Shown here: positions 1-11,081 of the stretch, piece after piece
How positions within the stretch are numbered: position 1 is the stretch's first letter
How the letters are laid out: each line of letters starts with the position of its first letter
From: a virus
Taxonomy: Duplodnaviria > Heunggongvirae > Uroviricota > Caudoviricetes
Reading direction: 5' to 3' (one strand)
DNA length: 11,081 bases
Virus record (IMG/VR): IMGVR_UViG_2534681697_000014
Span: 1 to 11,081 of that record
Program-made: the position numbers and the translations under genes
The notes under the pieces: generated by a model
What the model was told of the DNA's origin: nothing
Database searches by the model: none
Seen by the model: the letters and a program-made list of their open reading frames with translations, nothing else

Positions 1-24
1 CGCCTAACCAATAAGGCGCCGGGA

Positions 25-603
25 GTGTCGGGCGCTTCACGCAACGGTACGCGCCGCGCCATTACGCCGGAACATTACCAGCAGGTGATGGAGAAAGCCC
101 GCGCTGAGGATGCGGGGCTGGCTGCGGCGCTGGAGATCGCGCGACTGATGGGGTTACGCTCGCAGGAAACGGTACAGAGTTCACTGTCGCTGAAAACGTG
201 GCTGAAAGCCATTGAGCGCGGGGAAAACCGGCTGAAAGTGATGTTTGGCACCAAAGGTGGGCGTCCCCGCCATACGACAGCTCTGGATACTGGCGCAGTC
301 AGGAAAGCCGTTGAAAAAGCGTTAATTGTAGCAGAACAACACAATGGCAGGCTGATCGACAAGCCTGATCTCAAAATGGCGCTGGAGAGCTGGCACAAAC
401 AGGTCATTAAGGTGGGGCTGAAGGGGGAATTTTCCCCTCACTCCCTGCGCTATGCCTGGGCGCAGGATGCGATCCGCCATTATCTGGCGCAGGGATTCAG
501 CGAAAAGGAGTCACTGGCGCTGACGGCGACGGATCTGGGCCACGGCGACGGTCGTGGGCGCTGGGTGAAACAGGTGTACGGCTACCGCTGGAAGGAGGAA
601 TGA
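25..603 (+). CDS. Small tyrosine site-specific recombinase, FimB/FimE size class (192 aa from GTG at 25; frame is open to position 1, so the start may lie upstream)
   Basis: Translation shows tyrosine-recombinase catalytic boxes: LEIARLMGLRSQE (box I Arg), TKGGRPRH (Lys hairpin), HSLRYAWA (HxLR), LGHGDGRGRWVKQVY (C-terminal Tyr). N-terminus RRAITPEHYQQVMEKA resembles FimE KRRYLTGKEVQAMMQA as recalled from memory. Possible RBS AAGG 8 nt before GTG. Confidence 0.6.
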   Translation: MSGASRNGTRRAITPEHYQQVMEKARAEDAGLAAALEIARLMGLRSQETVQSSLSLKTWLKAIERGENRLKVMFGTKGGRPRHTTALDTGAVRKAVEKALIVAEQHNGRLIDKPDLKMALESWHKQVIKVGLKGEFSPHSLRYAWAQDAIRHYLAQGFSEKESLALTATDLGHGDGRGRWVKQVYGYRWKEE

Positions 604-789
604 CGGATTTCATGAATGGCGCAAAATAGTACGTTACTGCGTAACGACAGCGATTTATCGTACCCTCTGTACCGGATCTGGCGCAGGGGCGAGCGGGTTT
701 GTATTGTGAAAATATCGTTACAGCATGACGAATAAATATCAACAGATCAGATTTCCCTGCTTCACCAATATAGTTTGCCGGAATATTAT

Positions 790-811
790 AGTGATTACCC
801 CTGTAATCACT
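790..811. repeat. 22-bp palindrome AGTGATTAC-CCCT-GTAATCACT (GTGATT-N8-AATCAC)
   Basis: Read directly; 9-bp perfectly complementary arms around a 4-nt centre. Confidence 0.7.
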
Positions 812-1454
812 CGAAATGCTCCCTGGTAATAACAGGTGTTTCAATCGTTTTTACCGATACTACAGGGTTGGGAAAATTTTAAAATGTAAATTCACCGGGG
901 CTCACATTAATTCTGGCACAGGGTTATATCTGAATAATTCTCTCTGTGTTTTTCCGTATCCTGTTATATATATTGTATGGTCTCAGGATGCCTCATGATT
1001 TTATAAAAATGCTGCGACGGTTTTTGATATCATAACCTGCTGCATATAAATTAACAATTTTCGCTGCTTCATGTTATTTTTTTGCACTCTGTGACCGTTA
1101 TTGTGTGGTGAAATGCAATCTGGTGCAGGCAGTCATGGTGTATTTCCGAATGAACTGGTTACGCCAGAAAGGGAAAGGGTTATAAAGGTTAAGGGAGCGA
1201 TAAGGGTAACAGCGCCTGACCGGAAAGGGCCGAAAACCAAGGGCAAGAAACTGGCGCAGTCCTGAATGGATAGAGCGGCGGGACGCTGGCGCAGATAGCA
1301 GATTATCCGGGACGGGGGCAGATTATTTTGTCTTTATATAGCTGGTGCAGTGATGATATGTATCAGGAAGGATTATACGGTATTATAAGGCGCAATTTTG
1401 GGGATGTATTAATTGGTGATTCCGTGGAAACATCGATTATTGATAGCTTTTCAG

Positions 1455-1484
1455 CTTCCGTGATTAACATGTTAATCACGGAAG
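1455..1484. repeat. 30-bp perfect palindrome CTTCCGTGATTAACA|TGTTAATCACGGAAG (GTGATT-N8-AATCAC) in repeat copy A
   Basis: Read directly; the two halves are exact reverse complements. Confidence 0.8.
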
Positions 1485-1673
1485 GTGGCTGTCTATTGAA
1501 AACAGATGAATTGATAGGTTTTCACCTGAATTATTGGAAACCAAATAATTTCAGACTTATATCTATCTGGTATCTGATGTAGTTCTTACAGGCTTCAGAG
1601 TATAGGGTCAGGAGATATTCTGGAGTATTAATTGGCATTTCCGTGAAAATATCACGTATTGATAGCTTTTCAT

Positions 1674-1703
1674 CTTCTGTGATTTGCGGGCAAATCACAG
1701 AAG
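1674..1703. repeat. 30-bp near-perfect palindrome CTTCTGTGATTTGC-GG-GCAAATCACAGAAG (GTGATT-N8-AATCAC) in repeat copy B
   Basis: Read directly; differs from the copy-A palindrome by symmetric (compensatory) substitutions in both arms and a different, still self-complementary, centre. Confidence 0.8.
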
Positions 1704-1890
1704 GTAGTTATCTATCAATAATATATTTATTAATAGGCAATCGCCTGAAAATACTCTACTTGAATAATTTCTGGTACTTACCTATTAATAAGTAGTTCAT
1801 TGATTGGTTTTCACCCAAAATTATTTGGGGCCAAATATTTATAGATGTTTTCCGATTGATAATAACAAAAAAACGGCAATATCTATCAAC

Positions 1891-1928
1891 AAAAAAAAGC
1901 AGATCCCGGTCAATCAGGATCTGCTTTT
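1891..1928. terminator. Bidirectional intrinsic terminator downstream of the P4-type integrase
   Basis: A8 run (1891-1898), 8-bp stem GCAGATCC/GGATCTGC with 10-nt loop (1899-1924), then TTTT (1925-1928); U-tract follows the stem on either strand. About 30 bp past the integrase stop (1959). Confidence 0.6.
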
Positions 1929-1958
1929 CCAGTTTTAATGATTTACGCTATTTCTGAT

Positions 1959-3221
1959 TCAGGCTGCCTTATGCTGCCGCGCATAAATGTACGGCGCGAC
2001 ATACCCCTCGCGGCACACATCCAGATAATCCGACCACCACTGCATCATGGCCTTTCTGGCCTCCAGATGCTCTGCTTTATGCACATATGCCGCCCGCACG
2101 CTGTTGCGCTCCTGGTGGCTCATTTGCCGCTCCACCGTATCGCGTGACCACAGGTCCGACTCCACCAGGGCGCTACAGGCCATTGCCCTGAGTCCATGCC
2201 CACAGACTTCAGTTTTCGTATCATACCCCATCAGACGCAGCGCCCGGTTGGTGGTGTTTTCACTCATTGGCTTGTACGGATTATGGTCGCCGGGAAACAC
2301 CAGATCCAGATGGCCGGAAAGCTCCTGTATCTGTTTCAGAATGGCAATCGCCTGGCGGGAGAGCGGCACGATATGCGGGGTACGCATTTTTGCGCCACGC
2401 CCCGAAAACCGTACTTTATCAATTGCCTCGCGGGTGGCGGGAATGGTCCAGATTTTGTGCCTGAAATCAATCTCGCTCCAGTGGGCGAAACGCAGTTCGC
2501 TGGAACGGATGAACAGATGCAGCGTCAGCACCACCGCCAGCCGGGTTAACTCCCGGCCCTGCTGATAGTCACCGATGCGGCCAAGCAGTTCAGGCAACCG
2601 CTCCAGCGGTAAAGCGGGATAGTGATTCTTTACGGGTGAAGCGACAACGCCATCCAGATGCTGCGCCGGATTGCTTTCGGTAAGCCCCTGCTGAACGGCA
2701 TAGCGCATGATGTTGCTGAGTTGCTGCCGGGTTCGGGACGCGACTTCCAGAAAGCCTTTATCCTCAATAACCCGCAACAAAGCAGTGAAATCCTGCGTTT
2801 TAAGCGTGGCAACGGGCAGATGACCAATCGCCGGGAAGATATGGTTTTCCATACTGGCGAGAATACGGGCGGCATACTCAGCCGACCATTTTTTGTTGGT
2901 TTTGTGCCAGGCCAGCGCCACCGCCTTAAAGCACTTTTCAGGGGAGCAGGCTGCTTTCTCTGCCATGCGCTGCTGCGCCGGGTTGATATTCTGCGCCAGT
3001 AACTTACGGATACCGTCGCGCTGCTGCCTGGCTTCTGCCAGTGAGACCAGCGGATATGCGCCAAGACTGACTCTGGATTCTTTTCCGTTGAAACGATATT
3101 TGAGATACCAGATGCGTGAACCGCTCGGATTGACGAGCAGATACAGACCGTGAGAGCCGGAGAGTTTTACCGGACGGGAAGAGGGTTTTAACTTGCGGAT
3201 TTTAGAATCGTTTAAAGACAT
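1959..3221 (-). CDS. P4-type (tRNA-associated) tyrosine integrase, 420 aa
   Basis: Track ORF 1959..3323 carries a 34-codon in-frame extension; family-typical N-terminus MSLNDSKIRKLKP starts at ATG 3219-3221. Catalytic-domain signatures are present (RSSELR, HGLRAMA, RAAYVHKAEH). Lies 161 bp from the 3' end of tRNA-Asn on the same strand. Confidence 0.9.
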   Translation of the reverse strand: MSLNDSKIRKLKPSSRPVKLSGSHGLYLLVNPSGSRIWYLKYRFNGKESRVSLGAYPLVSLAEARQQRDGIRKLLAQNINPAQQRMAEKAACSPEKCFKAVALAWHKTNKKWSAEYAARILASMENHIFPAIGHLPVATLKTQDFTALLRVIEDKGFLEVASRTRQQLSNIMRYAVQQGLTESNPAQHLDGVVASPVKNHYPALPLERLPELLGRIGDYQQGRELTRLAVVLTLHLFIRSSELRFAHWSEIDFRHKIWTIPATREAIDKVRFSGRGAKMRTPHIVPLSRQAIAILKQIQELSGHLDLVFPGDHNPYKPMSENTTNRALRLMGYDTKTEVCGHGLRAMACSALVESDLWSRDTVERQMSHQERNSVRAAYVHKAEHLEARKAMMQWWSDYLDVCREGYVAPYIYARQHKAA

Positions 3222-3382
3222 TTGAGGGCCACTCCAGAATCGAACCAAACTGCCCCCAGATCTGACCACCAAATTATCCCGATGCGGAGAGAAAACTAGA
3301 TACGCACCGGGAAGGATTTTCACGCTAACTTACTGAATCGTAAACAAATAGAAACGTACAGATAAGCATGAAAACTTGAATT

Positions 3383-3458
3383 TGGCTCCTCTGACTGGAC
3401 TCGAACCAGTGACATACGGATTAACAGTCCGCCGTTCTACCGACTGAACTACAGAGGA
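3383..3458 (-). tRNA. asnT: tRNA-Asn (anticodon GUU), 76 nt
   Basis: Reverse complement reads TCCTCTGTAGTTCAGTCGGTAGAACGGCGGACTGTTAATCCGTATGTCACTGGTTCGAGTCCAGTCAGAGGAGCCA, matching E. coli tRNA-Asn as recalled, with CUGUUAA anticodon loop and encoded CCA. The asnT name (rather than another asn copy) is from position next to mtfA. Confidence 0.95.
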
Positions 3459-3558
3459 ATCGTGTGAACGGGGCGCATATTACTTAGCGGTACCTTGTCT
3501 GTCAACACTAAATTTCATAAGTCATTTCAATTGGTTAATTAATCTGCAAAGTTGTTAA

Positions 3559-4449: not shown

Positions 4450-4539
4450 GGAGAGATGCCGGAGCGGCTGAACGGACCGGTCTCGAAAACCGGAGTGGGG
4501 GCAACTCCACCGGGGGTTCAAATCCCCCTCTCTCCGCCA
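4450..4539 (+). tRNA. serU: tRNA-Ser (anticodon CGA), 90 nt with long variable arm
   Basis: GGAGAGATGCCGGAGCGGCTGAACGGACCGGTCTCGAAAACCGG...GGTTCAAATCCCCCTCTCTCCGCCA; anticodon loop CUCGAAA; encoded CCA. Confidence 0.95.
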
Positions 4540-4566: not shown

Positions 4567-5604
4567 TCAGTGACAAAAATCACACTTGGAATTACTTGGA
4601 ATATTTTCAGGTAACGGGACATCAAGTGTCGGTGAAACTTTAACCTTCCTGTCATAGATTAGCACTTGCCCCTCGGTTTTGTGACCAGAGAAAAGTTGCT
4701 TATCCCGACTGCTTCCTTCATAGTCTGAAATTCCTTTCGCCTTCAGATCATGAAAGGTGAAGTCGGTTAAAATACCTGAAATTTTGCCTGCGCGATTTCT
4801 TGCTTCTACCCACATTTCGTTAAAGCCTTTGTACATATATCGGTTGCCGTATTGATTGCTGATTACATAGGCGGATGTTGGTAACTGTTTTGCTTTTTCG
4901 ATCGCCGCCTGTAATCGTGGACTCCATGCTTTTATCTGTTTTTTTCCTGTTTTCCCTTGCTGGATAAAGATCCCGTCGTTTCCAATCTGCTCCCATTTCA
5001 GCGATAACACATCGGAAACCCTCGCTGCACACAGATAGGCAATTTCCATTGCGATAAAAACAGGAAGAGGTGCAACGCTTAATACTGCCTGGTATTCTTT
5101 GTCGGTTACATATCGTTCGCGGTTTTTGGCCTTGAATTTACTTACACCTGCACATGGGTTAGCCTTCACGTACCCTCGCTCATACCCCCAACTGTAAACG
5201 CGGGACATACTGCTTTTTTCATGGTTGGCTTGCGTTTTACTCTGTTCCCCTCTCTTGTCCATGTATCGACGGATGTGTTCTGGTTTTATGGAATCTGCCG
5301 GCACCTTACCGAATACGGCAAGCAACTTTTTTTGATGTTGCAGATAATCTTTTTGTGTTCTTGGACTGAGGTCACTGTAATAGGCGCTGGCGAGGAATTT
5401 TTCCCACAAGCGACCGAATGTCATTGCACGATCGCGATTATTTACAGTTTCCTCATACTTTTTCCATAAAGCAGCTAAACCATCCTTGATGGCGGTTAGT
5501 GTTACAGATTCTCTGGATGTTGGTTTCCATACATAACTATATTTATTTGGGTATACATTTGGAGGTAATTTTTCGTGTTCAGGATTTTTCCTTCGTCTTC
5601 CCAT
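4567..5604 (-). CDS. Lambda-family prophage integrase (tyrosine recombinase), 345 aa
   Basis: 345-aa ORF with a C-terminal catalytic region (FHDLKAKGISD...GHKTEGQVLIYDRK, Tyr nucleophile); start codon overlaps the stop of the upstream xis-like gene at 5604. Confidence 0.85.
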   Translation of the reverse strand: MGRRRKNPEHEKLPPNVYPNKYSYVWKPTSRESVTLTAIKDGLAALWKKYEETVNNRDRAMTFGRLWEKFLASAYYSDLSPRTQKDYLQHQKKLLAVFGKVPADSIKPEHIRRYMDKRGEQSKTQANHEKSSMSRVYSWGYERGYVKANPCAGVSKFKAKNRERYVTDKEYQAVLSVAPLPVFIAMEIAYLCAARVSDVLSLKWEQIGNDGIFIQQGKTGKKQIKAWSPRLQAAIEKAKQLPTSAYVISNQYGNRYMYKGFNEMWVEARNRAGKISGILTDFTFHDLKAKGISDYEGSSRDKQLFSGHKTEGQVLIYDRKVKVSPTLDVPLPENIPSNSKCDFCH

Positions 5605-5807
5605 CAGATCGCACCAAAATTCGGCTCTACCTCGCGTGGTGGTAAAGTTTTATTGCAGGTAAATAGATCCCGGCTGACAATCGGTTTGCCACTACGATTG
5701 GTATAGAACGGAAGCCCGTTTTCCATTAACCATTTTCGCTGGTGGCTTGCATATTTGCAGCCCGTTAATATTAGCAATTCATCTTCGGTTAAAAATAAGC
5801 TGCTCAT
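5604..5807 (-). CDS. Excisionase-like small protein (DUF4224-like), 67 aa
   Basis: Sits immediately upstream of int and is translationally coupled to it (stop/start share base 5604); LTEDELLILTG...WLMENGLPF resembles the DUF4224 family found at the xis position. Family assignment is from memory. Confidence 0.6.
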   Translation of the reverse strand: MSSLFLTEDELLILTGCKYASHQRKWLMENGLPFYTNRSGKPIVSRDLFTCNKTLPPREVEPNFGAI

Positions 5808-5865
5808 AGCTATATCTCATAACCGCCGCTAACTATATACGGTTAGCGGCAATTAGGGTTGAACA

Positions 5866-6210
5866 TTAAAAATCAGCCTGACTCGGGATCAGTTTTTGCC
5901 AGATAGCTGAAACGTATTTTGCTTGGTAACGAGCGTCATCAAGTGCATTATGGCGCTCACCTTCGAATGGAATAGCCGTTCTGGCATCGAAGTCTATGGC
6001 TTTCCCCAGCTCAACGATTGTGCGTACATCGCGATCGTTGTAGTAACGCCACGGGCAGGGGATCCCCTGCCGTTCGTATGAACGGCGCAAAATCGTGTTG
6101 TCGAAGTTGGCTCCATTTCCCCAGACCTGAACAAAAAATTCACCGGAGTTTTCGTCGATAAATTCCCGCAATTGTAACAGTGCATCATCTAACGGGATTT
6201 CATCGGTCAT
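5866..6210 (-). CDS. C-terminal two-thirds of a DEDDh (DnaQ-like) 3'-5' exonuclease domain, 114 aa, separated from its N-terminal part by an in-frame TGA
   Basis: Contains Exo II (WGNGANFD) and Exo III (HNALDDARYQAKY) motifs; ATG at 6208-6210 lies 3 codons after, and in the same frame as, the TGA (6220-6222) that ends the upstream 695-aa ORF. Confidence 0.7.
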   Translation of the reverse strand: MTDEIPLDDALLQLREFIDENSGEFFVQVWGNGANFDNTILRRSYERQGIPCPWRYYNDRDVRTIVELGKAIDFDARTAIPFEGERHNALDDARYQAKYVSAIWQKLIPSQADF

Positions 6211-6219
6211 AATGGCAGA

Positions 6220-8307
6220 TCACGCTTCGCGTGATTGCTTAAGCCACCATTTAATGGTGTCCCGATCAATGACTCCGCCAGCAGTTTCCAGATCGATAGT
6301 CTTACTAAATTCGGGTCCCATATCTCCGGTTTGCGGATCGAAAAATATTGCATCTATTGAGATGATCGGGGCATCAGGATTTTTTCCCATGGTTTCAAGG
6401 TCGATCATTAGATGGTCACACGTCCTGCTGGTGGATGTGATTTCGTGATGACCATTCACCGTAATTAAGGGATCTGCCGTCTCGCCAGTTTTACTATCGC
6501 TGGCGTGGTCCTGAGCGCTGCCAGCATTCTCCTTGTGTGGATGTTCAGCGCCTTCCATTTCCTCCGGATCATTTTCCTGAACTTCAACCTGATTCTCTTC
6601 ATCGAATGTTTTCTGGTATGTTGCGTCGTCCATCACCGCGCCACAATCAGGGCAGTTGCCGCCACCGCTCTGACCGCAGGCGGTGCAGACTTTTTCCGGT
6701 TCCTGTTGCGCTACTGGTTCGGATTGTTTCGTTTCTGGCTCGTTTTGTAACGCATTTGGGCTGTTTTGTTCCGCTTTTTGGTCGTTCCGTTCCGATTCAT
6801 GCTGGTTCTGGTTCACAGAATCGCGAGTCTGGATCCCCTTGACCCATTTCGGATCATTAGGGTCGCTAATCCCCTCAACAAATTCACCACGCGATACAGC
6901 AAGTAACTTATCGGCGTCAGGCTGGCTGATATTGGCTGCCTGCATAATTTTGTTTACTTCGTCAGCGGTGACTTTTACTTGGTTAGCGGAACTCACCTGC
7001 GACTGAGCATCCAGCGACTGCGCGTTCTGGCAATGTTCAGTTGTATCCGGTTCCATTGTTTCAGTTGTTGCCTGTTCACCTGCCATTGCGTCAGATGGTT
7101 GTGGTTTTTCTTCTTCTGTTTCACGCTCAGTAACCACCTCGCGGTTAATTTCTTCCAGGATATCTTTTTCCGGCGTATGCCGGGCAGCTGTGAGAGTTTC
7201 CTTGCTGGGGTTCTCGTGATCAGTTTCCGTCAAATAGGCGTTGATATACCCCTGAAGGCGTCCCGGGTAGTGATAAAATTCAGGGTGTGCGCTTCGGATA
7301 AGTGCAAAAATAGCGGCGCGGGAATAGTCCAGAATACCCGGGGTTGCACGAAGTGCTGCGGACCATTCTTTGAACGGACTTTCTTTTTTCAGGACTACTT
7401 CTTTTGCGCGACGATAAACGCTGCCCGGAATTTCATAAATATTAAAATCCATCGGAAGTGTGGCTGCTGCAATCTCCACATCCAGTGTGTCGAGGGTGTG
7501 TACTAAATTCGGATTGCGATCGGTTTTGTTCCCACCGCCAGCATTAGCACCGGAAGCCGTGCGGGTGATGCGTGAAACACGATTTCCTTTCATCCACTCT
7601 TTTGTCAGCAGACCCCGATCAGTGTAGTCAGCGTCCAGGTATGCTTCGAAAAAAGCAGTTATTAGTCCCAGGTCTGAATTACCAGGATTAGGGAAAACTT
7701 TGTCAGTGTCACGAACCAGTTTGTGGAGGTCGCGAATCTCCAGCGAGTCGAGCAGACTGGTTTTATGCGAAATAGCCAGGGCAGTAACAGCCGGTAGTTC
7801 TTCAGCCCGTGCAATGTGTAATGCCTGGAGTTCGTCGCGTGAAACGTGCGTTACTGGTTTTTCGCTGCCGTGTTGAGCAAGCCAACGAATGGGCAGTTCC
7901 TGACCGGAGACAGGTAGAAGCATGCTCTCCTCAATCTCAGTCATGTCTTCGCCGTTGATGTTGGTATTATCAGTGCTGGCTGATTTGTCCTGAACAGAGG
8001 GGGAAGGGCCGATAAATGTCATTGTGATGCCATCTTTCCCGCCTTTTTCATAGCGGTTGCAGAATTCAGTATCAAACACGCCTTCTGGCGGAAGGTCGTC
8101 AACAACGGGCAAATTGACGCGGACGGGTTTTTTAAAGTCGTCTTCATCATAATCGTTGTCATCCATTGCGGTAATGCAGCGGGAGATTGCAACAGATAAT
8201 TTTTTTGCTGTAGTCCAGTAAAAACCACCTTTAATTCCTAGGCGTTTTCTTACTTTGTCATTTTTTGCTTCGCAATATAGTGCAAATTCTTCTTTATCAG
8301 TGCTCAT
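6220..8307 (-). CDS. Large acidic RecE-N-terminal-like protein (695 aa) whose last 60 residues form the N-terminal part (Exo I motif) of the DEDDh exonuclease domain
   Basis: Long ORF with ATG at 8305-8307; zinc-ribbon [15 protein letters not shown]; acidic low-complexity stretches; C-terminal [25 protein letters not shown] carries the D-x-E Exo I motif. Resemblance to the Rac RecE N-terminal region is from memory only. Confidence 0.75.
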
Positions 8308-8400
8308 TATTGATAAACCTCATCACAGATTTAAGGGTGAACAAATCTCTGCCATTGCTGACATATAAGAATGAAACTGGATATTTATTACGGTGCTGTT

Positions 8401-8592
8401 TTAAAATCCTGCCGGGATTTCGTTATTATCCTGGTGAATAACTTTATCGACCGGATAACAGTTGCCTGGAATTTTCTGTTCGGTTGCTGCTGCCATACAT
8501 TCCTGCATTGTTCTGTGAACACTGACTGCAATATCAACTGGCTCTCCGGAAACAAGAAAAACCGTCAGAATAAGTGCAAATACTGGATTCAT
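8401..8592 (-). CDS. Small hypothetical prophage protein (63 aa) with hydrophobic N-terminus
   Basis: ATG at 8590-8592 overlaps the TGA of the upstream gene (ATGA coupling). Begins MNPVFALILTVFLVSG, a signal-peptide or membrane-anchor-like segment. The longer track ORF (start 8646) is probably an upstream extension. Confidence 0.5.
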   Translation of the reverse strand: MNPVFALILTVFLVSGEPVDIAVSVHRTMQECMAAATEQKIPGNCYPVDKVIHQDNNEIPAGF

Positions 8593-8777
8593 TGTGCACA
8601 TCCTTTTGGCATCAGACGTAAACGGGCCAGCATTGAAACAATGCATACTTTATTTAATAACTCCCGTTCGTGTTTTCTTTTGTTAATGGCCTCTTCAGTA
8701 AATACAGGATTACTGATAGTGACACCAATTTCAAAACAACCTTCAGACGTATTAACGTTTGGTAATAACGTTTTCAT
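8589..8777 (-). CDS. Small hypothetical Cys-containing prophage protein (62 aa)
   Basis: ATG at 8775-8777 preceded by GAGGG at 7-nt spacing; MKTLLPNVNTSEGCFEIGV...CIVSMLARLRLMPKGCAQ. The 97-aa track ORF starting at 8882 is probably an N-terminal over-extension. Confidence 0.5.
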   Translation of the reverse strand: MKTLLPNVNTSEGCFEIGVTISNPVFTEEAINKRKHERELLNKVCIVSMLARLRLMPKGCAQ

Positions 8778-9345
8778 TATCGCGCCCTCAACAATGAGTT
8801 TTGTGATGCGGTGCCTGGTGTCTCCAGGTGACGTTAACCAGTTAACAATTAACGCCGGATACAGAGAATCCACCCATAACACTGTTTTTGGTTTTAACTG
8901 TTCCGCGTGCGCTTAGCCGCATTCACCGCATCACAAAATTCACTTTAAAAAGGGCGGCAGAGCAGTCACGGAGTAAAACTGATACCGCCAAACGTCACCA
9001 GAAAATTGATAACAGAGGGCGTTGCAGCGGGGTTGTCACTTAAGCGTATGGTCAACCTGACAACCCGGTGTCCTCAACGGGGGAAGGAATAATCCCGCCA
9101 TACTTACCGCCGCGCCATTTCGCGGATTGCCACAACCGGAAGCGCACGGTCGACGAAAATTTAACGACAGGCTATCTATGAACCAGCTACCTCGCCGTGC
9201 GCTTTCGCGTTATGGTCTGACTTTTCAGGGAAATATCCTTTCAGTAAACTGTCAGTGCCGGATGCTCACCCGTGTCCGGCGCACGCACTCCACCTCACCC
9301 GTGGAGAACTCCTTAATTACTAACCTTAGCTTTGTTGATTAGCTA

Positions 9346-9564
9346 CTAACGCGGGTATGTAATCATTCTGGCAATGCTTAATGCCGCTGCTTTTTCCAGA
9401 TTGGTGATATCCTGCTCCAGAGCGGACAGATTTTCAGCCTGCTTAGCCCTGGCTTCATTAGCCCATTTCAGATCCTGCGCTGCATTAATTTTCTGGCGCA
9501 TCCACTCATAAAGTTCATCATCGGTATAGTCTGGCGCGATGATGACGGGTTCTCGTTTCTGCAC
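9346..9564 (-). CDS. Hypothetical small prophage protein (72 aa, predicted helical/coiled-coil), GTG start
   Basis: GTG at 9562-9564 preceded by GAGGAA; charged, helix-favouring sequence (ANEARAKQAENLSALEQDITNLEKAAALS). Confidence 0.5.
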   Translation of the reverse strand: MQKREPVIIAPDYTDDELYEWMRQKINAAQDLKWANEARAKQAENLSALEQDITNLEKAAALSIARMITYPR

Positions 9565-9593
9565 GCTGATTCCTCGCGGTGCTGTTTCGCTTA

Positions 9594-9722
9594 TCAGCCG
9601 TTAGATTTTGCCGAACTGGAAAGCGCCTGTTTAAATTCGCTGAAGCTGAGAGCTTCTTCGCCTTCGGCAAGGCCTTCGAAGTATTCTTCGTAAGCCTTTT
9701 CCATGATTGTGTCGAAATCCAT
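9594..9722 (-). CDS. Small acidic hypothetical protein (42 aa), not in the ORF track
   Basis: My translation of the minus strand: MDFDTIMEKAYEEYFEGLAEGEEALSFSEFKQALSSSAKSNG. ATG at 9720-9722 sits 2 nt after the TGA of the upstream 51-aa ORF, with GGTGGG just upstream. Confidence 0.4.
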   Translation of the reverse strand: MDFDTIMEKAYEEYFEGLAEGEEALSFSEFKQALSSSAKSNG

Positions 9723-9723
9723 A

Positions 9724-9879
9724 TCACCCACCTGAATTTCTTTCCAGCCAGCGACGCGCTCCAGATTCGGTTTTAAACGTTTTGCTTTTGGTATACGTCA
9801 TTGCGGTGAAGGTGCCGTCCTGGTTGGGAAACACGCCGTACACCAGAGATTCGTTGTTGCCAAGATCGATAGTATCCAT
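9724..9879 (-). CDS. Small hypothetical prophage protein (51 aa)
   Basis: MDTIDLGNNESLVYGVFPNQDGTFTAMTYTKSKTFKTESGARRWLERNSGG; ATG at 9877-9879 preceded by GAGGT at 4-nt spacing. The 92-aa track ORF (to 10002) extends this frame into the IS66 end and is probably artefactual. Confidence 0.45.
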   Translation of the reverse strand: MDTIDLGNNESLVYGVFPNQDGTFTAMTYTKSKTFKTESGARRWLERNSGG

Positions 9880-10023
9880 GCTGACCTCATTTCCCCTTAA
9901 CGCCGGGGTAGCGGAACAAAAACCTGCTGCATAGTTATTAAGTAAGCGCCCCATCAGCGACGTCTTGTGAAAATTGTCCTGTCTGGCAACAATCGCGCCC
10001 ATCTATATTGATGGACACGAACG

Positions 10024-10698
10024 ATGAATTCCCAGACAACAAAAGATATTCCCTGCTTCCGTTCTTATTTGCCTGATGCCCTGCGTTTAAGATTTGAAGA
10101 TAAACTGACCATCCGGGCCATCGCTCAGCGTCTGGGTCTCAGTCATTCCACAATACATACGCTTTTTCAGCGATTTCTTGCATCCGGTATCGCATGGCCA
10201 TTGCCCGATTCAGTTTCATTCGCTCAACTTGACGCCATCCTTTATGCCAACAGAAAGAAGGAATTAACAGAGCCTCAAATCAGAGAAGGCTCATGGCGAA
10301 AAGAACGGCGAACCAGCTATAGCCGTGAATTTAAGGTCCGTCTGGCTAAGCAGGCGTTACAGCCTGGGGCTGTTGTTGCCCGGATCGCCAGAGAACACGA
10401 TATCAATGATAACCTGCTGTTTAAATGGAAAAGCCAGTACGAGGACGGATTACTGAGCGATGATGACATACAGGAATGCATGCCTGTCCCGGTGGCACTG
10501 ACTGATACGCCGGAGCCGACCAGACCAGTTACAAATCCCTTCTGGCGTAACAAGCATGATGAGCGCCCTGAGGGGGCTCCCGGAAACGTCCCACGGTGCG
10601 AGCTGCATCTTAAATCAGGTGTGGTAAAACTGTTTGACCCTCTCACTCCGGAACTGTTACGGGCGCTAATCCGCGAAATGAAAGGGGGTATCCGATGA
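10024..10698 (+). CDS. tnpA: IS66-family accessory protein TnpA (orf1), 224 aa as called
   Basis: HTH region RTSYSREFKVRLAKQALQPGAVVARIAREHDINDNLLFKWKSQY typical of IS66/IS3 orfA proteins; stop overlaps tnpB start (ATGA at 10695-10698). Longer than the roughly 135 aa I expect for IS66 TnpA, so the true start is uncertain. Confidence 0.65.
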   Translation: MNSQTTKDIPCFRSYLPDALRLRFEDKLTIRAIAQRLGLSHSTIHTLFQRFLASGIAWPLPDSVSFAQLDAILYANRKKELTEPQIREGSWRKERRTSYSREFKVRLAKQALQPGAVVARIAREHDINDNLLFKWKSQYEDGLLSDDDIQECMPVPVALTDTPEPTRPVTNPFWRNKHDERPEGAPGNVPRCELHLKSGVVKLFDPLTPELLRALIREMKGGIR

Positions 10699-11042
10699 TA
10701 ACGCTGCCGACCGGTACCAAAATCTGGATCATCGCTGGCATCACAGATATGCGTTGTGGCTTCAATGGCCTGGCTTCGAAGGTGCAGAACACGCTGAAAG
10801 ATGACCCGTTCTCCGGGCATATCTTCGTCTTCCGGGGCCGCAGTGGCAAAATGGTGAAAATACTGTGGGCCGATCGTGACGGGTTATGCCTGTTCGCCAA
10901 ACGCCTGGAACGGGGCCGCTTCGTCTGGCCGGTGACCCGGGAAGGGAAAGTGCACCTGACGCCAGCTCAGTTATCCATGCTACTGGAGGGGATCGCGTGG
11001 CAACATCCCAAACGGACAGAACGGCCTGGCATCCGGATATAA
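10695..11042 (+). CDS. tnpB: IS66-family accessory protein TnpB (orf2), 115 aa
   Basis: MITLPTGTKIWIIAGITDMRCGFNGLA...KILWADRDGLCLFAKRLE is the characteristic IS66 Orf2 sequence and length; AGGGGG RBS 8 nt upstream. Confidence 0.9.
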   Translation: MITLPTGTKIWIIAGITDMRCGFNGLASKVQNTLKDDPFSGHIFVFRGRSGKMVKILWADRDGLCLFAKRLERGRFVWPVTREGKVHLTPAQLSMLLEGIAWQHPKRTERPGIRI

Positions 11043-11068
11043 CCCGTGATAAAACAAGGGAATGAACA

Positions 11069-11081
11069 ATGAACTCCCCGA
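11069..11081 (+). CDS. tnpC: Probable 5' end of the IS66-family transposase TnpC (first 4 codons only)
   Basis: ATG at 11069 with AAGGGA 7 nt upstream, 26 bp after the tnpB stop; position fits the third IS66 ORF. Too short to verify. Confidence 0.3.

What the first reader, a model, noticed from the sequence alone, without database searches (positions are those of the whole stretch)
1404..1848. Tandem duplicated unit in 219-bp register inside the island's non-coding region
Two copies of a unit of about 150 bp (starting 1406 and 1625) are offset by exactly 219 bp. The plus-strand frame stays open through both copies, but the substitutions are mostly nonsynonymous and the synonymous ones coincide with compensatory palindrome changes, so I interpret this as structured non-coding DNA rather than duplicated peptides. 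Each unit also ends with a second palindromic motif (AATTATTGG-AAA-CCAAATAATT in A, ATTTGG-GG-CCAAAT in B). The arrangement resembles duplicated small-RNA or type I toxin-antitoxin loci, or iterated recombinase/regulator binding sites.
Basis: seen in the sequence. Interest (0 to 1): 0.5.

Follow-up and report, generated by a model that had tools for sequence, protein, structure and literature searches.

The report
Hairpin repeat array beside island integrase
A non-coding stretch next to the integrase of an E. coli genomic island is built from five copies of a roughly 70-base hairpin-forming module; the repeat family is real and I found no prior description of it, but its role (RNA stem-loops, protein sites, or none) is still open.

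Summary
Positions 1406-1530 and 1625-1749 match at 93 of 125 bases at offset 219 (shuffles: 54 ± 2). The finer unit is a 69-nt module: conserved flanks (ATTGATAG-N-TTTTCA … TTTCC-N-ATTGATAA) around a palindrome of variable sequence. Five modules lie head to tail at 1438-1506, 1509-1577, 1657-1725, 1728-1795 and 1798-1866.

They sit in a 1.35-kb unannotated gap between two convergent tyrosine-recombinase genes: a PF12835 'Integrase_1' gene and a P4-like int at tRNA-Asn.

Relatives carry 1 to 5 modules, in Escherichia and one Salmonella replicon. Serratia, Klebsiella, Cedecea and S. arizonae have the same gene pair but no modules.

The stems keep pairing through double substitutions: 4 pairs in type I, 5 in type II. 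The region is not coding: indels of 1, 8, 14 and 71 nt, no codon periodicity, and no conserved small ORF. I found no Rfam, phage or literature match.

Type I toxin-antitoxin, P4 crr, oriT, integron attC and REP/BIME membership each fail at least one defining feature.

Best reading (about 0.4): a locus-private, BIME-like stem-loop repeat in the shared 3' region of the two genes. Rivals are a protein-binding array or functionless palindromic repeats. Interest is moderate.

The parts
25..603 (+). 3' part of the 294-aa 'Integrase_1' tyrosine-recombinase-like gene; the window starts inside the gene
   Evidence: ORF. The full-length orthologue in L001 matches PF12834 + PF12835 (E 7e-60). It is annotated 'integrase domain-containing protein'. 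PF12835 is used as the signature of MpsA-type relaxases in PMC10484663.
604..1958 (.). 1.35-kb gap without annotated genes between the two convergent recombinase genes
   Evidence: No feature is annotated here in most RefSeq relatives; one O145 record has a 99-aa 'hypothetical protein' over copy A. GC falls to 0.28-0.40.
678..1350 (+). Five + strand copies of the 9-mer CTGGYGCAG (678, 1120, 1251, 1286, 1342); the last lies just before the array
   Evidence: 8 copies in the window against 0.14 expected. The cluster and its strand switch upstream of the Integrase_1 gene are conserved in all genera examined.
1141..1300 (+). Purine/G-rich element (core 1184-1271). It is the only part of the gap, besides the terminator, that is conserved across genera
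   Evidence: blastn hits in Serratia, Klebsiella indica, Cedecea, Pseudocitrobacter and S. arizonae, right after the Integrase_1 stop. Sequences read.
1406..1437 (+). Leader of copy A (TATTAATTGG…TTCCGTGGAAACATC…)
   Evidence: Start of the 125-nt repeat; alignment.
1438..1506 (+). Module S1, with type I palindrome 1455-1484
   Evidence: Covariance-model hit at 35.3 bits. Fold -27.9 kcal/mol, z -6.2. Covariation.
1509..1577 (+). Module S2, with type II AT-rich hairpin 1526-1554
   Evidence: Covariance-model hit at 28.7 bits, E 0.02. Compensated variant GAACTTATTGG/CCAAATAAGTTC in L039.
1578..1624 (+). Spacer between copy A and copy B; carries the 8-nt and 14-nt indels seen among alleles
   Evidence: Alignment columns 316-323 and 366-379.
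1625..1656 (+). Leader of copy B
1657..1725 (+). Module S3, with type I palindrome 1675-1704 and closing helix TATTGATAG/CTATCAATA
   Evidence: Covariance-model hit at 52.1 bits. Fold -28.9 kcal/mol, z -7.9. Flagged terminator-like on the + strand.
1728..1795 (+). Module S4, the extra module of copy B, with a degenerate central palindrome around 1743-1771
   Evidence: Covariance-model hit at 41.9 bits. Inverted repeat I2. Fold z -3.9 on +, -5.5 on -.
1798..1866 (+). Module S5, the 'founder' module next to the terminator, with type II hairpin 1815-1844
   Evidence: Best covariance-model hit at 86.1 bits. It is the module type present as the sole module in L026 and conserved in Salmonella L063; S5 plus the terminator is 67% identical, against 72-81% for the flanking genes.
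1895..1928 (.). Bidirectional intrinsic terminator shared by the convergent genes
   Evidence: Perfect 12-bp inverted repeat. Terminator scan gives 16 pairs plus a T-run on the - strand. The same hairpin is the only terminator in the 190-bp minimal gap of K. indica.
1959..3221 (-). P4-like island integrase, 420 aa, intact in this window
   Evidence: Pfam Arm-DNA-bind_3, Phage_int_M and Phage_integrase. Annotated tyrosine recombinase in relatives.
3383..3458 (-). tRNA-Asn (GTT), the island's attachment site (asnT position, next to mtfA and tRNA-Ser)
   Evidence: ARAGORN and Rfam. Synteny with L003, L004 and L008.

Best explanation
The feature is a non-coding array of five 69-nt repeat modules that belong to this locus only. 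Each module has conserved flanks (ATTGATAG-N-TTTTCA on the left, TAG…TTTCC-N-ATTGATAA on the right) around a palindrome. The palindrome's sequence is free, but its pairing is kept.

The 219-bp register is a higher-order duplication of 'leader + two modules'. Copy B later gained a third module. Modules are gained and lost in register, probably by unequal recombination or slippage between the direct repeats.

The array lies between the stop codon of the PF12835 (MpsA/MOB_M-type) gene and the single bidirectional terminator it shares with the convergent P4-like int. If that gene is expressed, the modules would therefore be transcribed on the + strand as part of its 3' untranslated region.

I think the modules most likely work as a private, BIME/REP-like set of stem-loops in that RNA. 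As such they would act as barriers to 3' exonucleases, as processing sites, or as weak terminators and insulators between the two convergent genes.

Shown: the anatomy, the non-coding nature, the covariation, the copy-number variation and the genomic context. Inferred: transcription, the strand, and the RNA-level role.
For: - Repeat and register.
- Five head-to-tail modules, found by a covariance model built from Escherichia and Salmonella modules, and found only in this gap.
- Module number among relatives is 1, 2, 3, 4 or 5, with indel end points at module boundaries.
- Stems are kept through double changes. Type I: 93.4% of cells paired, 4 pairs with changes on both sides, 0/500 shuffles reach the observed covariation score, and slid controls pair at no more than 51%. 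Type II: 90.9% paired, 5 such pairs.
- On the + strand every module folds into a closed hairpin, and its outer helix needs G·U pairs. Pair 6-61 is G·U in 8 of 11 modules. The whole array folds at -150 kcal/mol on +, against -126 on -.
- The only clear intrinsic terminator in the gap is the bidirectional hairpin at 1895-1928. It is also the only one in the minimal gap of K. indica. Everything inserted before it is therefore downstream of the + strand gene.
- The S5-type module plus terminator is 67% identical between E. coli and Salmonella India. The flanking genes are 72-81% identical and the gap as a whole is 47%.
- Not coding.
Against: - There are no expression data.
- Single-sided stem changes give wobble pairs about equally often on either strand, roughly 5 events each by my count. 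Type II hairpins and module S4 fold better on the - strand. There is thus no clear strand signature of RNA selection.
- By my reading of the sequences, 5 of 12 palindrome centres are self-complementary tetranucleotides (CATG, CGCG, CCGG, ACGT twice), against 1/16 expected by chance. Loop bases do not need to pair, so this points to dyad symmetry made or kept at the DNA level.
- The stems are AT-rich and are not followed by U-runs.
- Modules are missing from Serratia, Klebsiella, Cedecea and S. arizonae islands that have the same gene pair. They are therefore dispensable for that pair.
- The array diverges about as fast as its surroundings.
- The array persists in loci where int is a pseudogene.
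Confidence: 0.4

Rival explanations
1. DNA-level protein-binding array. The conserved flanks, or the outer palindrome arms (11-nt arms around an 8-bp centre: CTTCYGTGATT-N8-AATCACRGAAG and CCAAAATTATT-N8-AATAATTTTGG), would be sites for an island protein. Candidates are the PF12835 recombinase/relaxase-like protein, Int, or the HTH_35 protein. The array would then serve as accessory or recombination sites, or as part of a transfer or replication origin.
For: - The array always lies between two tyrosine-recombinase genes.
- An 11-8-11 layout is typical of tyrosine-recombinase core sites (established knowledge).
- The dyad symmetry runs through the centre (sequences).
- Flanks are conserved in sequence while the centres vary.
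- Known tyrosine-recombinase-type relaxases use origins of transfer with several inverted and direct repeats (PMC6414798; PMC8152469).
- PF12835 is used as an MpsA-type relaxase signature.
- A Pantoea plasmid with an MPF_G transfer system and no called relaxase carries a homologue of the gene.
Against: - Palindrome arms differ between module types, so one protein could not read all of them.
- The centres stay palindromic, which a duplex-binding recombinase site does not require.
- The three characterised origins of this relaxase class lie upstream of the relaxase gene. This array is downstream, and the GC-rich inverted repeats lie upstream of the gene here.
- Modules are absent in four genera that have the same two genes.
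- The array is 1.5-1.9 kb from the att core, too far for P4-type arm sites. In P4 these lie within about 460 bp.
- No replication gene is seen nearby.
Confidence: 0.25
2. Functionless by-product. The gap is an insertion and rearrangement hot spot. A short palindromic sequence there has been amplified by slippage or unequal crossing-over. The arms are kept alike by template-switch ('quasipalindrome correction') mutation rather than by selection.
For: - Copy number ranges from 0 to 5 among islands with the same backbone.
- Other genera carry unrelated cargo at the same spot: a 90-aa ORF in Serratia, and in Cedecea an ~800-bp insert flanked by a duplicated terminator arm.
- IS1 sits inside the region in some strains.
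- Palindromes that are perfect through the loop are what template switching produces.
- There is no strand bias in wobble pairs.
- Divergence is similar to that of neighbouring non-coding DNA.
- The array survives in decayed islands with a pseudogenised int.
Against: - Module flanks and layout are recognisable between Escherichia and Salmonella (covariance-model hits of 69-75 bits), although the rest of the gap is unalignable.
- Copies A and B are 26% diverged, yet both keep long stems.
- Three modules in Salmonella are dispersed rather than tandem.
Confidence: 0.25
3. Independent small-RNA genes, duplicated in tandem, possibly with a type I toxin. Each unit would carry its own promoter and end at a hairpin. 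For example, TTCACC-17/18-AATAAT inside the type II modules could drive an RNA of about 90 nt from about 1847 to the terminator at 1895-1928.
For: - Promoter-like sites at + 1521-1549 and + 1811-1839 lie at equivalent module positions and are present in 20/21 and 14/21 alleles.
- Hairpin 1672-1705 is scored terminator-like.
- Precedent: the SGI1 mobilisation module needs a self-encoded small RNA (PMC9299015).
Against: - The promoter matches are weak (8-9 of 12), and the count is no higher than in shuffles (6 found, 4.7 expected).
- No Rfam family matches, even at E up to 10.
- No conserved small hydrophobic ORF with a ribosome-binding site.
- No hairpin is followed by a U-run, apart from the shared terminator.
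Confidence: 0.08
4. Duplicated coding sequence: an unannotated small protein or a decayed gene.
For: ORFs 1328-1582 (+, 84 aa) and 1363-1479 (-, 38 aa; intact in 17/20 alleles) exist. One O145 record annotates a 99-aa hypothetical protein here.
Against: Frame-breaking indels among alleles. No third-position excess. No Shine-Dalgarno-like sequences, and the start codons lie inside the hairpins.
Confidence: 0.02

Closest known systems
REP/BIME arrays of E. coli (bacterial interspersed mosaic elements)
   Same: Extragenic palindromic units with conserved linkers. They occur in tandem clusters of variable copy number, typically in 3' regions or between convergent genes, and act as RNA stem-loops or as protein-binding DNA (established knowledge). 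Position between convergent genes and copy-number variation are shown here.
   Different: This family is not dispersed: it occurs only at this locus, at most 6 matches per genome, in 403 of 5,426 genomes. It is AT-rich rather than GC-rich. All modules are in direct rather than alternating orientation. There is no REP consensus.
cis replication region (crr) of satellite phage P4
   Same: Two long direct repeats (120 bp, 180 bp apart) full of short iterons, in an element with a P4-type integrase.
   Different: No sequence similarity. The P4 octamer TGTTCACC is absent from the gap. In P4 the crr lies on the other side of attP, next to the alpha primase gene; here there is no primase and the array lies past the 3' end of int. 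The P4 repeats lack long palindromes.
Origins of transfer and the sgm small RNA of tyrosine-recombinase-type relaxase modules (SGI1 MpsA/MpsB, pIGRK MobK, pCW3 TcpM)
   Same: Non-coding DNA beside a tyrosine-recombinase-like gene, with several inverted and direct repeats and a G-rich tract. SGI1 also needs a non-coding RNA from that region.
   Different: Those origins lie upstream of the relaxase gene and are conserved along with it. This array is downstream, AT-rich, and absent from other genera with the same gene. I did not test homology of the PF12835 protein to MpsA directly.
Integron attC sites
   Same: Arrays of elements of about 60-140 bp next to a tyrosine recombinase. Flanks are conserved, and the centre is conserved only as a palindrome.
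   Different: No gene cassettes lie between the hairpins, because the modules abut. I saw no RYYYAAC/GTTRRRY boxes by reading. The palindromes are near-perfect rather than carrying extrahelical bases. The neighbouring recombinase is PF12835, not IntI.
Tandem type I toxin-antitoxin repeats (Ibs/Sib, Ldr/Rdl, Zor/Orz)
   Same: Tandemly duplicated units of a few hundred bp in intergenic DNA, with strong RNA structure.
   Different: No conserved small hydrophobic ORF or ribosome-binding site. No Rfam match to Sib, Rdl, OrzO or similar.

Membership tests
Type I toxin-antitoxin locus | Small (under about 60 aa) hydrophobic toxin ORF with a ribosome-binding site, conserved between copies and alleles | tested here: not met
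   no ORF of 15 aa or more has a Shine-Dalgarno-like sequence. The only hydrophobic ORF (1839-1913, - strand) is intact in 0/20 alleles; no codon periodicity.
Type I toxin-antitoxin locus | Antisense RNA matching a known antitoxin family | tested here: not met
   Rfam at gathering threshold and at E up to 10 gives only chance hairpin matches.
Known small-RNA or cis-regulatory RNA family (Rfam 15) | Covariance-model score at or above the family's gathering score | tested here: not met
   The best hit inside the array is mir-559, 23.9 bits at 1714-1804 against a threshold of 95; the best hit in the scanned 600-1960 stretch is mir-1289, 26.8 bits against a threshold of 66, and it lies on the shared terminator.
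Independent sRNA gene | Own promoter and intrinsic terminator | tested here: inconclusive
   Weak sigma-70-like sites only (8-9 of 12), no more than in shuffles; some are conserved among alleles. One terminator-like hairpin on the + strand at 1672-1705.
Independent sRNA gene | A discrete transcript | not testable with these tools
   No expression data are available. No paper contains the palindrome sequences.
P4 crr | Two long direct repeats | tested here: met
   125-nt repeat at offset 219.
P4 crr | Multiple type I iterons (TGTTCACC) in both orientations | tested here: not met
   TGTTCACC occurs only at 7073 and 8336, outside the gap.
P4 crr | Adjacent alpha primase-helicase gene and a position beside attP opposite to int | tested here: not met
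   P4 map. Here the array lies past the 3' end of int and faces a recombinase-like gene.
REP/BIME | Hundreds of dispersed copies per genome | tested here: not met
   Median 2 and at most 6 places per genome, all at asn-tRNA islands, in 403 of 5,426 genomes.
REP/BIME | Extragenic palindromic units in tandem clusters between or after genes, with variable copy number | tested here: met
REP/BIME | Alternating orientation of units and a GC-rich REP consensus | tested here: not met
   All five best covariance-model hits are on the + strand, and module GC is 0.26-0.38.
oriT of a tyrosine-recombinase-type (MOB_M) relaxase | Lies upstream of the relaxase gene | tested here: not met
   The array is downstream of the PF12835 gene. 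The rule comes from PMC9299015 and the 2026 preprint.
oriT of a tyrosine-recombinase-type (MOB_M) relaxase | Conserved together with the relaxase among related elements | tested here: not met
   No module in Serratia, K. indica, Cedecea or S. arizonae loci whose PF12835 proteins are 61-73% identical.
oriT of a tyrosine-recombinase-type (MOB_M) relaxase | Supports mobilisation in cis; nicked by the relaxase | not testable with these tools
   Needs mating and nicking assays.
Integron attC array | Gene cassettes (ORFs) separated by attC sites | tested here: not met
   Modules abut, with 2-nt gaps, except for the 79-nt spacer plus leader between S2 and S3, which holds no conserved ORF.
Integron attC array | IntI-type integrase next to the array | tested here: not met
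   The neighbours are PF12834/PF12835 and P4-like Int proteins.
Type III toxin-antitoxin (ToxI-like repeat array) | Tandem repeats of about 36 nt followed by an endoribonuclease toxin gene | tested here: not met
   The units are 69 nt, and what follows is the terminator and the 3' end of int.
Miniature inverted-repeat transposable element | Copies dispersed at unrelated sites, with target-site duplications | tested here: not met
   Found only in this gap. The three Salmonella copies are dispersed, but within the same gap.

The most novel reading that the evidence does not exclude
The modules are structure-specific recognition elements of the island's mobilisation or recombination machinery. 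One form: hairpins folded in single-stranded DNA during transfer and read by the PF12835 tyrosine-recombinase-type protein, as attC sites or origin-of-transfer hairpins are. Another form: domains of an RNA cofactor comparable to the sgm small RNA that SGI1 needs for mobilisation. Together with the polar CTGGYGCAG 9-mer cluster, they would define the cis-acting apparatus of a widespread, uncharacterised class of tRNA-integrated mobilisable islands.
Probability: 0.12. Interest if true: 0.75.

Novelty: new variant of a known kind. Interest (0 to 1): 0.4.

Why it matters
If the modules act as RNA or DNA hairpins, they would add a locus-private counterpart to the REP/BIME class. They would also give a handle on how two convergent recombinase genes of a common family of tRNA-Asn/Phe islands are insulated or regulated. 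These islands carry type VI secretion/Rhs cargo or restriction-modification systems.

The context may matter more than the repeat itself. The neighbouring PF12835 gene belongs to a family now proposed to be the most common chromosomal relaxase type (preprint read). The cis-acting DNA around it is uncharted: the 9-mer cluster, the G-rich element and the hairpin modules.

If the modules turn out to be functionless, they remain a clean natural example of palindromes that stay paired through double substitutions while their copy number changes.

Tried and rejected
- Coding or peptide reading: rejected.
- Type I toxin-antitoxin: rejected.
- Rfam families: none.
- Phage similarity: none, including P4.
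- P4 crr analogy: architecture only. Iterons, position and partner gene all differ.
- Plasmid similarity: one weak hit, which turned out to be the same island module on a Salmonella India 473-kb replicon.
- CRP site: TGTGA-N12-TCACA has the wrong spacing. IHF site: no WATCAANNNNTTR fit at the boxes. Both considered by eye and dropped.
- P4-type attP arm sites: the array is too far from the core.
- Dispersed MITE: not dispersed.
- Window 700-840 looked by eye like a decayed module (palindrome 790-811), but the covariance model did not find it.
- PDB sequence search with the PF12835 protein: no hit.
- Preprint supplements, the pIGRK record and the SGI-4 oriT paper were not available. I therefore could not test directly whether this PF12835 protein is a MOB_M relaxase.
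- Literature search for the palindrome sequences: nothing.
- The viral-contig scan for the G-rich element found nothing. The scan for the module found one contig, which I assumed to be the neighbouring prophage region and did not examine.
Full report
**Where the feature lies**

The window is Escherichia coli chromosome. tRNA-Asn (3383-3458, - strand) is followed by a P4-like integrase gene (1959-3221, - strand; Arm-DNA-bind_3, Phage_int_M and Phage_integrase domains). Converging on it from the left is the 3' part of a 294-aa gene (25-603, + strand). Its full-length orthologue matches Pfam PF12834 + PF12835 'Integrase_1'.

Between the two stop codons lie 1,355 bp (604-1958). RefSeq leaves this stretch unannotated in nearly all relatives. 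The reported feature sits in the right half of this gap.

The gap sequence occurs in 404 of 5,426 complete E. coli genomes. It is always chromosomal and always at one of the asn-tRNA genes. It lies beside cargo such as Rhs or type VI secretion genes, or beside yeeJ in reduced islands.

Yes. Positions 1406-1530 and 1625-1749 align without gaps at 74% identity with an offset of exactly 219. That is 93 of 125 matches, against 54 ± 2 (maximum 62) in shuffles.

Three corrections apply:
- The + frame is interrupted by a stop at 1580-1582.
- Copy B contains an extra 70-nt piece.
- The array extends to about 1866.

**Anatomy**

The repeat finder already showed a finer period. A 34-nt box recurs at 1422, 1493, 1641, 1712 and 1782, with spacings of 71, 148, 71 and 70.

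I built a covariance model from eleven modules of Escherichia and Salmonella. It finds five head-to-tail 69-nt modules in the window: 1438-1506, 1509-1577, 1657-1725, 1728-1795 and 1798-1866. It finds none elsewhere in the window.

Each module has three parts:
- a left flank, (T)ATTGATAG-N-TTTTCA;
- a palindrome;
- a right flank, TAG…TTTCC-N-ATTGATAA (or CTATCAATA).

The palindromes come in two types:
- Type I (S1, S3) has arms CTTCYGTGATT around an 8-nt centre (AACATGTT, TGCGGGCA, or AACGCGTT in strain STLIN_13).
- Type II (S2, S5; degenerate in S4) has AT-rich arms CCAAAATTATT around TGGGGCCA, CACCGGTG, CACTGGTG or CTACGTAG.

A 32-nt leader (TATTAATTGG…TTCCGTGAAAATATC) precedes S1 and S3. 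The 219-bp repeat is therefore 'leader + type I + type II'. Copy B has one additional module.

**Comparative evidence**

I collected 34 distinct alleles from RefSeq genomes, other Escherichia species and a metagenome scan. The number of modules varies:

| Modules | Where |
|---|---|
| 1 | metagenomic allele L026 |
| 2 | STLIN_13, E. albertii, hybrid L057 |
| 3 | E. whittamii |
| 4 | O145, EcPF16 |
| 5 | this window, NIPH17, L039 |

The indel end points fall at module boundaries.

A Salmonella India 473-kb replicon carries the same gene pair, with the PF12835 protein 66% identical. It has three modules with quite different palindromes. They are dispersed in the gap rather than tandem.

Serratia, Klebsiella indica, Cedecea, Pseudocitrobacter and S. 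arizonae also have the gene pair, at tRNA-Phe (where a tRNA lies within the fetched locus). They have no modules. There the gap is as short as about 190 bp, or holds unrelated cargo.

Across genera, only two parts of the gap are conserved: a G-rich element (window 1184-1271) and the bidirectional terminator (1895-1928).

**The region is not coding**

- Alleles differ by indels of 1-2, 8, 14 and 71 nt.
- Differences between copies A and B fall 13/11/8 on the three phases. Allelic differences fall 31/30/27.
- No ORF has a Shine-Dalgarno-like sequence.
- No ORF is both hydrophobic and conserved.

**The structure is maintained**

For type I hairpins (17 distinct sequences), 93.4% of cells pair and four pairs show changes on both sides (U-A/C-G, G-C/A-U, U-A/A-U, G-C/A-U). 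No shuffle out of 500 reaches the observed covariation score, and slid controls pair at no more than 51%.

For type II modules (11 sequences, including the Salmonella ones), 90.9% of cells pair and five pairs show changes on both sides.

Individual examples:
- CCGTGATT…AATCACGG becomes CCATGATT…AATCATGG in L039.
- TTATTTGG-GG-CCAAATAA becomes TTATTCAC-CG-GTGAATAA in L026, E. albertii and NIPH17.

The whole array folds far better than shuffles on both strands: z -8.4 on + and -9.4 on -.

**RNA or DNA?**

The evidence is mixed.

For a + strand RNA:
- The closing helices formed by the flanks need G·U pairs and exist for all five modules only on the + strand.
- The + strand fold is stronger (-150 against -126 kcal/mol).
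- The only clear intrinsic terminator in the gap is the bidirectional hairpin next to int. This is also true in the minimal gap of K. indica. Everything in the gap is therefore downstream of the + strand gene.

Against:
- Single-sided stem changes give wobble pairs on either strand about equally often (my count).
- Type II hairpins and S4 fold better on the - strand.
- Five of twelve palindrome centres are self-complementary tetranucleotides. An RNA loop has no need for that. It suggests dyad symmetry created or kept in DNA, for example by template switching or a symmetric binding protein.
- Promoter-like sites are weak and no more frequent than in shuffles. However, TTCACC-17/18-AATAAT inside type II modules is kept in 14-20 of 21 alleles.

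**Context from the literature**

- PF12835 is used as the signature of MpsA-type 'atypical relaxases' related to tyrosine recombinases (PMC10484663).
- A 2026 preprint reports that such MOB_M relaxases are the commonest relaxases in chromosomes. It finds that 96% lie next to an integrase, and that they go with MPF_G systems or stand alone.
- In line with this, a Pantoea plasmid typed as having MPF_G but no relaxase carries a PF12835 homologue.
- The characterised members (SGI1, pIGRK, pCW3) have origins of transfer with several inverted and direct repeats, and in pIGRK an essential G-rich tract. SGI1 also needs a non-coding RNA encoded beside the origin.

These are useful analogies, but they do not fit the array well. 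Those origins lie upstream of the relaxase gene and are conserved together with it. Here, GC-rich inverted repeats lie upstream of the PF12835 gene. The AT-rich modules are downstream and dispensable in other genera. I could not test directly whether this protein is a MOB_M relaxase.

**Verdict**

The finding is a real, previously undescribed, locus-private family of hairpin repeat modules. Membership in type I or type III toxin-antitoxin systems, known RNA families, P4 crr, integron attC arrays, dispersed REP/BIME or MITE families, and MOB_M origins of transfer each fails at least one defining feature that I tested.

My preferred mechanism, at about 0.4, is a BIME-like set of stem-loops in the shared 3' region of two convergent recombinase genes. 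The rivals:
- a DNA-level protein-binding array (0.25);
- functionless palindromic repeats kept symmetric by mutation bias (0.25);
- independent small-RNA genes (0.08);
- coding sequence (0.02).

Strand-specific transcript mapping and an array deletion would decide among them.

Noticed in passing
window 290, 484, 678, 1120, 1251, 1286, 1342 (+) and 2991 (-); L001 7710-10049; L012-L020, L063: The 9-mer CTGGYGCAG is strongly over-represented around the PF12835 gene: 8 copies in the window against 0.14 expected, 16 in L001 against 0.29, and 9 in L063 against 0.12. Three to four copies lie on the - strand upstream of the gene. From about 65 nt before the start codon onward, all copies are on the + strand, including conserved positions inside the coding sequence and in the gap. 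The strand switch is conserved in Escherichia, Salmonella, Serratia, Klebsiella and Cedecea. The cluster is absent around two plasmid-borne homologues at 46-47% identity. It may be a binding-site array of the mobilisation or recombination module.
   Followed up: partly
window 1141-1300 (core 1184-1271): A purine/G-rich element (GAAAGGGAAAGGG…AAGGGAGCGATAAGGGTAACAGCGCCTGACCGGAAAGGGCCG) is the only part of the gap, besides the terminator, that is conserved across genera. There it sits 50-90 nt after the PF12835 stop codon. The pIGRK origin of transfer needs a G-rich tract, but that one lies upstream of its relaxase gene.
   Followed up: partly
L018 5000-5830; L013 4985-5560; hits H1, H9, H10: The gap is an insertion hot spot. 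Cedecea has an ~800-bp insert flanked by a duplicated GTGCAAATAAAAAGCAGA (the left arm of the int terminator). Serratia has an unrelated 90-aa ORF. Some E. coli strains have IS1 inside the region.
   Followed up: partly
window 1-3460 versus L001 and L003: The window's module is a mosaic. Positions 1-600 are 97-100% identical to the NIPH17 allele (L003). Positions 1141-1958 are 98-100% identical to the ATCC 8739 allele (L001). This implies recombination between islands at different asn-tRNA genes.
   Followed up: no
L065 (Pantoea agglomerans plasmid NZ_CP103404.1): This plasmid is typed as having an MPF_G mating system but is called 'non-mobilizable' because no relaxase was found. It carries a PF12835 homologue at the head of a row of small hypothetical genes. 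That makes the homologue a candidate for the missing relaxase.
   Followed up: no
window 790-811: Another palindrome (AGTGATTAC-CCCT-GTAATCACT) has module-like neighbours (GTGAAAATATCG at 705; CCCTGGTAATAACAGG after it). It may be a decayed module, but the covariance model did not detect it.
   Followed up: partly
window 4450-4539 and 4567-11081; 8952-9003 (-): tRNA-Ser (CGA) is followed by what looks like a lambdoid prophage. An ORF at 4567-5604 (-) occupies the position of the integrase annotated in O145 strains. A full-length DicF RNA gene is present (76.7 bits). mtfA lies between the two tRNAs.
   Followed up: no
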